From Callorhinchus milii (taxonomy: Eukaryota): DNA of 64,000 nucleotides. The translations under genes and the position numbers were made by a program. The notes under the pieces were generated by a model. That model saw only the letters and a program-made list of their open reading frames with translations. It was not told the origin of the DNA and ran no database searches. The first letter of the stretch is position 1. The number at the start of each line of letters is the position of its first letter. The stretch spans positions 3,348,001 to 3,412,000 of the forward strand of contig NW_024704760.1 of assembly GCF_018977255.1 (NCBI RefSeq), read 5' to 3'. Below, piece after piece: positions 45,201 to 48,200 of this stretch.

Positions 45201-48200
45201 GAGCCCTGTTATAACATGGTAATTGAAGAAGAGGGTGTCCATAAGCACCAACCAGCACTGTAACAGGCGACTTGAGCAATTGGTGTTCGTCTACCGCAAT
45301 GCTATCATATGACCATTGACGTAACTGCACAGGAAAATGGCAGAGTTCCAGGTTGTCAGGTCACTGCTGATGATGTTACTTCCTACGTGCAGCATGGCCA
45401 TGTTTAACGTGCGGAAAGCTAGCCAGTCCACTCGTCCAGGCCAAACGTGGTTCCATAGCACACGTGCATAATAACTAAACCAGTGTTATCTAGGCTGTTT
45501 GTGGGGACGCTGCTGTGCGCAATTGGCTGCCGTCTTTCGCCCACAAATATACAGTCAATTCACTTTGCATTATATTCCGTGAAGCGCTTTGAGACGTCTC
45601 GAAGACGTGAGAAGGCGCCATATCGAATGCAAGGTTATTAAGGATTATCATTATTAAACTTGGTTACCTTCTGTATGATATGTGCCGTGATGTATTGTTA
45701 GGTTGGGAAACTGGTAACCAGTGAGCTAAATAGAATAAATAGCACCGTTTATATTTTGGAATATCTTCCGGCATGGCTACAGTTTTGCAGGAATGTGTGG
45801 AAAATAAGTGTTTTCGTCAATATTTCAAACTCAAGTCCTACAGTTATATTTACTTGACAGTTATTTAATTGCTCATGCTGAACTTGTGACTACAAGTTCT
45901 GACGCAAAAAAATGCTGAAGTAGATCTACATACCATGAAACATTATACGCGCATCTTAAATAGCGCAGTTAAATATCGTCCTCCTATTCCTATCTTACTG
46001 TTAAAAATTAACCACAGTAGACAACAGATGTTCAGACATAAGCAATAATATAGTTACTTGCATTTGTCTAGCACCTTTCAAGTAAAAACAAACACCTCAA
46101 AGTGCTGTGCGAACTATAATTGATTAGAAATAAAGTGAATATTGTGTTAGAGACAAACGCATCTGCTAATCTGCGCCAACAATGTCCTATAAACAACCAT
46201 AAGATGAGCATTTCATTGAGTTTTCATTCAGTAATTGGGTTCATTGATTCACTGTTGGATCATTTTCTGTTTTCAGGTCTTTTTTGTTGAATCTGTCTGT
46301 GATGATCCAGAAGTTATTGCTGCAAATATAACGGTAAGTTAAAAATCACAGCTGAAGTCATCTCAAATTCAGTCTGATAAATAACAATCCTTGCATTTGA
46401 TGTGGCGATCACATTGGGTGGATGTCCCAAGGCGCTGGACAGTCAAGGATTTAGACCCGAGCTGGGGATCGGGATCAGGAGGGATGGTGGGTGGGAGGGT
46501 GACCGAAGGCACGGCCGAAGAGGAGGGTCTTGAGACGTGCCTTGAAGGAGACAAGGGAGGGGGCAACCTTTCCTCCCTCTCCCCTTCCCCAGGAGTACAG
46601 TCACCAGTTGGTAATTGGGGCAGAGTATTTGCATATTCGCAGAAGAAACGAGTGGAGGAACTTGATGCAATGATTTAATCCCGGTTGGATATCCGGTCAA
46701 TGATTGACATCTCACATCTGTGAATACAGGAGGTGAAATTAACGAGCCCGGACTACGAAAATATAGACAAAGACCAAATCATGGATGATTTCCTCAAGCG
46801 AATTGAAACCTATCAAATAACCTATGAACCTCTGGATCCAGATGATTATGACAAGTAAGCGTTTGTTTCCTTATTTCTGGCTGTCGCTTGGCTTTTCGTC
46901 ATTTAACATTTTGCACGATTGGATTTGCCGGATGTTTGTCCGTTTGCCGATACAACAACTTGCATTTACGCGGCGTCCATCAGGCCCGGGCAGCGTCTCG
47001 GAGTGCGTGTACTTATATCTGACGACTGAGATTGTGCTTCTAATCGCAGGGATCTGGCCTTCATTAAAGTGATTGATGTCGGCCGCCGGTTCCTCGTGAA
47101 CAGAGTCCAGGATTACATCCAGAGTAAAATAGTCTATTACCTGATGAACATTCATGTCTATCCCGTGCCATCTTCTTGTGTCGTCACGGAGAGAGTTTGG
47201 ACAACCGACATGGCAGGATCGGTGGGGACTCGGGCTTGACACATCAGGGACAAAAGGTACAGCAGGAATCTGCATTGCTTGCGTTTGTTGCACCTGCTGT
47301 AGAAGGCGTAGGGGTCGTGTTTGAAAGGATCATGGAGTGAATTTTAAAACGCTTTGCATTGGAATTTTTTCTTTTGCGGGATCAGGAGGGGTGAGAGGGT
47401 GACCGAAGGCACGGTCGAAGAGGAGGGTCTTGAGACGGGCCTCGAGGGAGACTTGGGAGGGGGCAACCTTTCCCCCTCCAGTTTGGGATCAGAGCCCGAG
47501 GGAGAAATGTGCATCGGGTTATCATATGACCGAAAAATGATTTGTTAACGTCTGATGGATTCTTCAACGAGAACGCTGCTTTTGATGTGTTGTGTCCACA
47601 CGTTTCTCTCCTGTAGCCAGTGACTCGGGCTAGGGCAGGTCTAAAGGCATTTATTGCATGTGTTGTTATTGTAGGGCATGGTTCAATACTCGCCCAAGCG
47701 GCCATTCTTCGTGCCATAGCCCAGACTGCGTGTCGTCAGGCAATTCAACTGTGGTTACAGCCCAGGCCAACCCTGCCCTTCCTAGCCAAAGAGGGCTTGG
47801 GCCATCTTTTGCACCACCACCACTGCTCCAGATTAGGTAACTCAGCTCGTGCTGGGAACGAATGGTCAATCCAGTTTCCCATTATAAGTGTTATAGCGCA
47901 CAATGTACTAAGCTTTCCAGCACACCCAGCATCACCGGCTACCTTTTCCTTTTGAGTGTGGGATAGAATATTACATGGCCGATAGTTTCAGGACTGAAGG
48001 TGCATCCTGGACCTACTAATTGTAATTTTCTTTTGTCGGCCGGGTGTCTGACACATGCGGAAACCCATCACCCTGCTTAGGACTATCCAAACCAAACTGA
48101 TCCTAATTGAAAGAAGTAAAGTTTCTTGAGATCAGGGCTGGTAAATAGCAGTCCCTTGGGGCTAAGGTACACGAGCTTTCACGAGCATGCTTTACTTGCT

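What the first reader, a model, noticed from the sequence alone, without database searches (positions are those of the whole stretch)
47050..47256. Single-base frameshift in PFKFB2 at the kinase/bisphosphatase boundary
Seen: exon 8 reads CAT GTC TAT CCC GTG CCA... and is 207 nt, but the flanking phases need 208. Adding one C (TAT CCC CGT GCC ATC TTC TTG TGT CGT CAC GGA GAG) restores [11 protein letters not shown]. As given, translation ends at TGA 47237-47239, giving a kinase-only protein. All six downstream exons are intact with the catalytic residues (RHG His, KRT Arg, NEID Glu, HQAV His). Inference: most likely a homopolymer assembly error or a recent null allele, and the premature stop would be an NMD target. 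If fixed in the species, it would imply a monofunctional PFK-2 or recoding. There is no canonical X XXY YYZ slippery site, so programmed -1 frameshifting is poorly supported.
Basis: partly seen in the sequence, partly recalled or inferred. Interest (0 to 1): 0.7.

Follow-up and report, generated by a model that had tools for sequence, protein, structure and literature searches.

The report
Assembly slip in elephant shark PFKFB2
The apparent break in the elephant shark's sugar-regulating gene PFKFB2 is one base missing from this genome sequence; all six public data sets tested here that span the spot carry the base and read through, so it is most likely an ordinary assembly error in an intact gene.

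Summary
It is not a trait of the species. Of 8 public runs laid, 6 bridge the site and all 6 carry an extra base: 4 genomic-type runs and 1 spliced run read CCC CGT, 1 spliced run reads CCG CGT. Both give Pro-Arg and an open 454-aa bifunctional enzyme (with my candidate exon 1). None shows the 207-nt form. All 12 same-species database proteins, both paralogous exons in this genome (208 nt) and three shark and ray orthologs are intact. The missing base is thus a silent C/G polymorphic position, and the assembly's CCC is what both alleles share. Most likely a collapsed consensus dropped the base (inferred; reads of the assembled animal were not identified). A private null allele remains possible at about 4%. 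A fixed kinase-only gene and recoding are refuted. Side note: this gene and three cartilaginous-fish orthologs lack the RRNS phosphorylation tail of mammalian heart PFKFB2. No earlier scan note among the 8 returned bore on this.

The parts
47050..47256 (+). PFKFB2 exon 8 as assembled (207 nt; 208 nt in every run that bridges it); end of the kinase domain and start of the bisphosphatase domain with the RHG motif
47162..47164 (+). CCC in the assembly; CCCC (5 runs) or CCGC (1 run) in public data. The missing base is the third position of the Pro codon, a silent C/G polymorphism
   Evidence: (table 4)
47237..47239 (+). TGA that ends the shifted frame; in the true frame it lies across Leu-Thr codons
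39205..39235 (+). Candidate first coding exon ([12 protein letters not shown] donor, phase fits exon 2); not checked against RNA
   Evidence: start resembles shark and ray orthologs P0014, P0015
42885..46854 (+). Kinase-domain exons 2-7 (42885-43010, 43105-43201, 44429-44495, 44818-44892, 46277-46333, 46730-46854), all AG/GT, open
   Evidence: joints of exons 6-7 and 7-8 seen in spliced contigs
48370..56824 (+). Bisphosphatase exons 9-13 and last exon 14 (56756-56824, ends in TGA), open, with KRT, NEID and HQAVMR motifs
   Evidence: X11 contig continues from 47256 into exon 9
33505..36219 (-). YOD1/OTU1 neighbour, two exons, open
18121..20183 (-). SARG/C1orf116 neighbour, last two coding exons join in frame

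Best explanation
The window lacks one base that every bridging public data set has, so the frameshift is most likely a consensus error of this assembly, and the real gene encodes an ordinary two-domain PFKFB2 that is predicted to both make and break fructose-2,6-bisphosphate. Shown: the base is present in 6 of 6 bridging runs, as C or as G, and either letter restores Tyr-Pro-Arg-Ala and an open frame; the gene is spliced across exons 6-9. Inferred: the assembled animal likely carried both alleles (CCCC and CCGC), or a plain four-C run, and the consensus kept only CCC, the string common to both. Inferred from homology, not assayed: both enzyme activities.
For:: X1-X4 (4 samples, 1 study, contigs cover introns) each show C put in behind 47161, with depth_with equal to total depth (10.3, 6.14, 10.2, 8.1); spliced contigs of a second study show C (X5, depth 46.7) or G behind 47163 (X10, depth 31). 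The X11 piece (third study) stops at 47164 with 7 letters left over, the stopping point expected for the G allele and not for the assembled form (47157) or the C allele (47162) (indirect). N, C or G at the break all give one open 454-aa frame; 12 of 12 same-species database proteins read [19 protein letters not shown], and P0005 is identical to the read-through model over 417 aligned residues; paralogous exons on C5 and C12 are 208 nt; the 4 other exonic variants seen are silent (5 of 5 with the C/G site); 115 of 118 homologs keep the 10-residue YLMN-to-CRHG spacing, and the other 3 (shark and rays) keep it with SRHG. Precedent: nearby allelic variants put indel errors into a collapsed assembly (PMC8445201, passages); frameshift errors are a known defect of long-read consensus (Merfin preprint, passages).
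Against: No run could be tied to the assembled animal, so its genotype at the site is unseen. All runs are Logan contigs, which drop rare variants. The G allele rests on one bridging contig plus one indirect alignment end, and no single run shows both alleles. The 12 database proteins are isoform predictions, probably from one source, so they are not 12 independent witnesses. The homolog list was chosen by score and by length 241-769 aa, which favours intact proteins. The two neighbouring genes show no indel, so the region is not visibly error-rich. The sequencing technology of this assembly was not determined.
Confidence: 0.95

Rival explanations
1. The assembled animal really carried a one-base deletion, a private or rare null allele whose message would be destroyed by nonsense-mediated decay.
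For: The window has the deletion. The source animal's reads were not identified, and contigs drop rare variants. The stop lies 527 nt upstream of the last junction, which fits decay by the 50-55 nt rule (recalled).
Against: 0 of 6 bridging runs show it. The deletion falls exactly on a silent polymorphic base in a C run, where a collapsed consensus is expected to slip (passage). 12 of 12 same-species database proteins are intact.
Confidence: 0.04
2. The deletion is fixed in the species, giving a kinase-only PFK-2 of about 255 residues or a pseudogene.
For: The break sits at the domain boundary, so the truncated product (255 aa) would hold the whole 6PF2K domain.
Against: 6 of 6 bridging runs from 6 samples and 2 studies carry the base. 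The downstream exons are intact and spliced in. All 5 exonic variants are silent.
Confidence: 0.005
3. The genome has three Cs and the frame is restored by recoding: programmed -1 frameshifting, transcriptional slippage, insertion editing or alternative splicing.
For: None beyond the intact downstream exons.
Against: Intron-covering genomic-type contigs already hold the base, so nothing needs restoring. No slippery heptamer. The candidate cryptic donors (47069, 47096, 47124) all lie before RHG and would remove it. No joint inside exon 8 in spliced contigs.
Confidence: 0.005

Closest known systems
Callorhinchus milii PFKFB2 predictions (XP_007897762.1 = P0005; UniRef100_A0A4W3GWG8 = P0002 and its cluster)
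   Same: Identical to the window's read-through model over 417 aligned residues, with the same last exon.
   Different: They contain the base that the window lacks. Their starts differ from my candidate exon 1, and several have SINE-like ends that look like prediction noise.
Mammalian PFKFB2 (PDB 5htk_A, 5hr5_A)
   Same: Best structural-database matches (755.5 and 751.8 bits, ahead of PFKFB3 at 709 or less). Same two-domain layout and catalytic motifs.
   Different: Alignment stops at residue 418. The window gene has no exon like the heart-isoform exon 15 that carries Ser466/Ser483 (PMC13446353, passages); its last exon instead aligns with chains 1bif, 2bif, 3bif and 1k6m out to residue 435.
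Indel artefacts in collapsed or long-read consensus assemblies (PMC8445201; Merfin, bioRxiv 10.1101/2021.07.16.452324)
   Same: An apparent frameshift in a conserved gene that vanishes in independent data and lies at an allelic variant.
   Different: There the haplotypes of the source were phased or its reads used; here the source animal's reads were not identified, so the mechanism is inferred.

Membership tests
PFKFB2 (vertebrate ortholog) | N-terminal 6PF2K domain followed in one frame by a histidine-phosphatase domain | tested here: met
   Pfam PF01591 at 2-216 and PF00300 at 219-403 on P0005; one frame in 6 of 6 bridging runs
PFKFB2 (vertebrate ortholog) | Closer to PFKFB2 than to PFKFB1, 3 or 4 | tested here: met
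   PDB ranking; named hits are mostly PFKFB2, though two long PFKFB3 entries rank high. No tree was built.
PFKFB2 (vertebrate ortholog) | Neighbours YOD1 and C1orf116/SARG (human order recalled) | tested here: met
   OTU1 and SARG Pfam matches upstream on the opposite strand
PFKFB2 (vertebrate ortholog) | Catalytic motifs [22 protein letters not shown] (roles recalled; one search found no paper with the residue numbers) | tested here: met
   All found in P0005
PFKFB2 (vertebrate ortholog) | Measured kinase and bisphosphatase activity | not testable with these tools
   Needs an enzyme assay
Mammalian heart-type PFKFB2 isoform (not filed here) | Exon 15 tail with Ser466/Ser483 | tested here: not met
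   A profile of 93 tails finds nothing in window 54138-64000 (best E 0.52); the genome search finds one match, at the C5 paralog
Programmed -1 ribosomal frameshift site | X XXY YYZ slippery heptamer | tested here: not met
   None in exon 8
Programmed -1 ribosomal frameshift site | The mRNA itself is out of frame | tested here: not met
   Spliced contigs X5 and X10 are in frame
Fixed pseudogene or kinase-only gene | Lesion shared by all individuals | tested here: not met
   0 of 6 bridging runs
Consensus indel artefact | Lesion absent from independent data of the species | tested here: met
Consensus indel artefact | Lesion absent from the raw reads of the assembled individual | not testable with these tools
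   Only contigs of coded runs were offered; the source animal was not identified

The most novel reading that the evidence does not exclude
The assembled elephant shark carried a real, rare one-base deletion at this polymorphic codon: a natural PFKFB2 null or kinase-only allele segregating in a wild cartilaginous fish.
Probability: 0.04. Interest if true: 0.15.

Novelty: not a real feature. Interest (0 to 1): 0.05.

Why it matters
It matters only as a correction: PFKFB2 should not be counted as lost, truncated or recoded in this species, and the reference needs one base at 47162-47164. It is also a clean example of a silent polymorphism turning into a false frameshift. The side observation, that PFKFB2 of cartilaginous fishes seems to lack the hormone-regulated phosphorylation tail, is of more biological interest than the finding itself but was only partly followed up.

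Tried and rejected
Second genomic copy or haplotig with the intact exon: none; the DNA search found the window and one 77% paralog (2 of 2 candidates). Rescue by cryptic splicing: rejected. Slippery site: none. X6 has no cover at the site and X11 does not bridge it, so neither is counted among the 6. No RNA holder is on record in the run list; X5, X10 and X11 are guessed RNA and treated as cDNA because they skip introns at GT..AG. dN/dS for exons 9-14 was not computed; no orthologous DNA was fetched. The first exon-boundary guesses were off by 1-7 bases in places and were corrected; the paralog boundary print was off by 3 and was redone. Literature: 'PFKFB2 + frameshift + bisphosphatase domain' gave 0 papers; 'PFKFB2 + cartilaginous + evolution' gave 5 (4 listed), none on this by title or abstract start; 'kinase-only/monofunctional' gave 6, none on a vertebrate kinase-only PFKFB2 by listing; catalytic residue numbers gave 0. 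PMC6053246 passages added nothing. The 8 earlier scan notes returned (of 665 fitting) concern other genes.

Full report
Observation. The exon runs from 47050 to 47256, 207 nt, between an AG and a GT. The upstream frame reads DLAFIK...MNIHVYP and then runs off to TGA at 47237-47239; the downstream frame holds [11 protein letters not shown]...QGQK. Pfam puts the end of 6PF2K in the first frame and the start of His_Phos_1 in the second (the second match, 18.2 bits on a 43-aa piece, is under the curated cut-off). The six later exons are open.

The gene. Exon 9 matches, at 100%, proteins named PFKFB2 of Callorhinchus milii. The 439-aa prediction P0005 scores best against PFKFB2 chains in the PDB, and YOD1 and SARG lie upstream (the human gene order is recalled). 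The genome holds one copy of this exon; the protein search also found paralogs on C5 and C12, whose matching exons are 208 nt and open.

The decisive test. One search listed 24 runs, 13 of which hold the stretch; I laid 8. X1-X4 (four samples, one study; contigs cover introns, so genomic by inference) each show one C put in behind 47161 at their full depth. X5 and X10 (a second study; they skip introns at GT..AG, so cDNA by inference) also carry an extra base: C in X5, G behind 47163 in X10. X6 does not cover the site. X11 does not bridge it: its piece stops at 47164 with 7 letters left, which is where the G allele would stop, not the assembled form or the C allele (indirect). So 6 of 8 runs bridge the site, 6 of 6 have the base, and 0 of 6 have the assembled form. 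With C or G the codons are TAT CCC CGT or TAT CCG CGT, both Tyr-Pro-Arg, and the model is one open frame of 454 aa including my candidate exon 1. An X11 contig continues from 47256 into exon 9, so the bisphosphatase half is spliced in.

Other evidence. All 12 same-species database proteins read through the boundary; they are probably not independent of each other. Of 118 other homologs listed (the best 120 of 1907, less two same-species entries), 115 keep the 10-residue spacing from YLMN to CRHG. The other 3 are a shark and two rays with SRHG at the same spacing. This list favours intact proteins by design. The four other exonic variants in the runs (46756, 46786, 46799, 47238) are silent, weak support for purifying selection given the small number.

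How it most likely arose. The missing base is a silent C/G polymorphic position inside a C run. Deleting one C from CCCC, or the G from CCGC, gives the assembly's CCC. A consensus built from both haplotypes, or from a four-C run alone, could lose it. PMC8445201 reports that nearby allelic variants introduced indel errors into a collapsed assembly (passages read), and the Merfin preprint treats frameshift errors as a routine consensus defect (passages read). That the assembled animal was heterozygous is inferred, not shown; no single run showed both alleles.

Rivals. A private null allele cannot be excluded, because the source animal's reads were not identified and contigs drop rare variants (about 4%). 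The stop would lie 17 nt before the exon 8/9 junction and 527 nt before the last one, so decay would be expected (rule recalled). A fixed kinase-only gene is refuted. Recoding is unnecessary because genomic-type contigs already hold the base; there is also no slippery heptamer, and the cryptic donors would remove RHG.

Side observation. The last exon (56756-56824, [12 protein letters not shown]...) aligns with chains 1bif, 2bif, 3bif and 1k6m to residue 435, while PFKFB2 and PFKFB3 chains stop at 415-418. By a loose pattern, 94 of 118 homologs have an RRNS-type tail. The shark and ray PFKFB2 predictions P0014, P0015 and P0030 do not, and lungfish P0017 has the RRNS segment followed by a similar EDAL-type end. 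A profile of 93 such tails finds nothing between 54138 and 64000, and a genome search with the coelacanth tail hits only the C5 paralog (1 match among 10 candidates, E 0.007). [quoted passage not shown] Cartilaginous-fish PFKFB2 may therefore lack this control, but that rests on gene predictions and one genome; one search found no paper on it by listing. Supplements were not opened for any paper.

Verdict. Interest 0.05.

Noticed in passing
window 54138-56824 (+); P0014, P0015, P0030, P0017: No RRNS / Ser466-Ser483-type tail exon after exon 13; the gene ends in an EEAL-type last exon like that of chains 1bif and 1k6m. Shark and ray orthologs look the same, lungfish has both segments, and the C5 paralog has an RRNS-like match. 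Possible loss of the phosphorylation tail in cartilaginous-fish PFKFB2.
   Followed up: partly
window 47162-47164: Silent C/G polymorphism at the Pro codon (5 runs C, 1 run G, 1 run indirectly G).
   Followed up: yes
window 46756, 46786, 46799, 47238 (exonic); 46860, 47283 (intronic): Six further variants in 681 bases among four genomic-type runs; the four exonic ones are silent.
   Followed up: yes
window 39205-39235 (+): Candidate first coding exon [10 protein letters not shown], absent from the 12 same-species predictions, resembling the starts of shark and ray orthologs. It faces away from YOD1 across about 3 kb.
   Followed up: partly
window 52877-52882: Tandem acceptor (CAG AAG): some database isoforms read KKADLP and others KKAEDLP. 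Use in RNA not checked.
   Followed up: no
window 53406-53879 (+), 42737-42802 (+): Several UniRef isoforms of this gene begin or end in SINE-like repeat sequence that recurs across the window; probably prediction noise.
   Followed up: partly
window 18121-20183 (-), 33505-36219 (-): SARG/C1orf116 and YOD1 neighbours; the exons checked join in frame without stops. The SARG start exon was not located.
   Followed up: partly
window 39780-40360 and 62710-63560: Long C-rich and G/A-rich low-complexity tracts that give spurious long open frames; a GC-rich stretch near 63580-63700 may mark the start of the next gene.
   Followed up: no
G000: Only three PFKFB loci (C19, C5, C12) appeared among 23 matches from 34 candidates at E 1e-6; a fourth paralog was not seen, but the search scores only its best candidates.
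   Followed up: no
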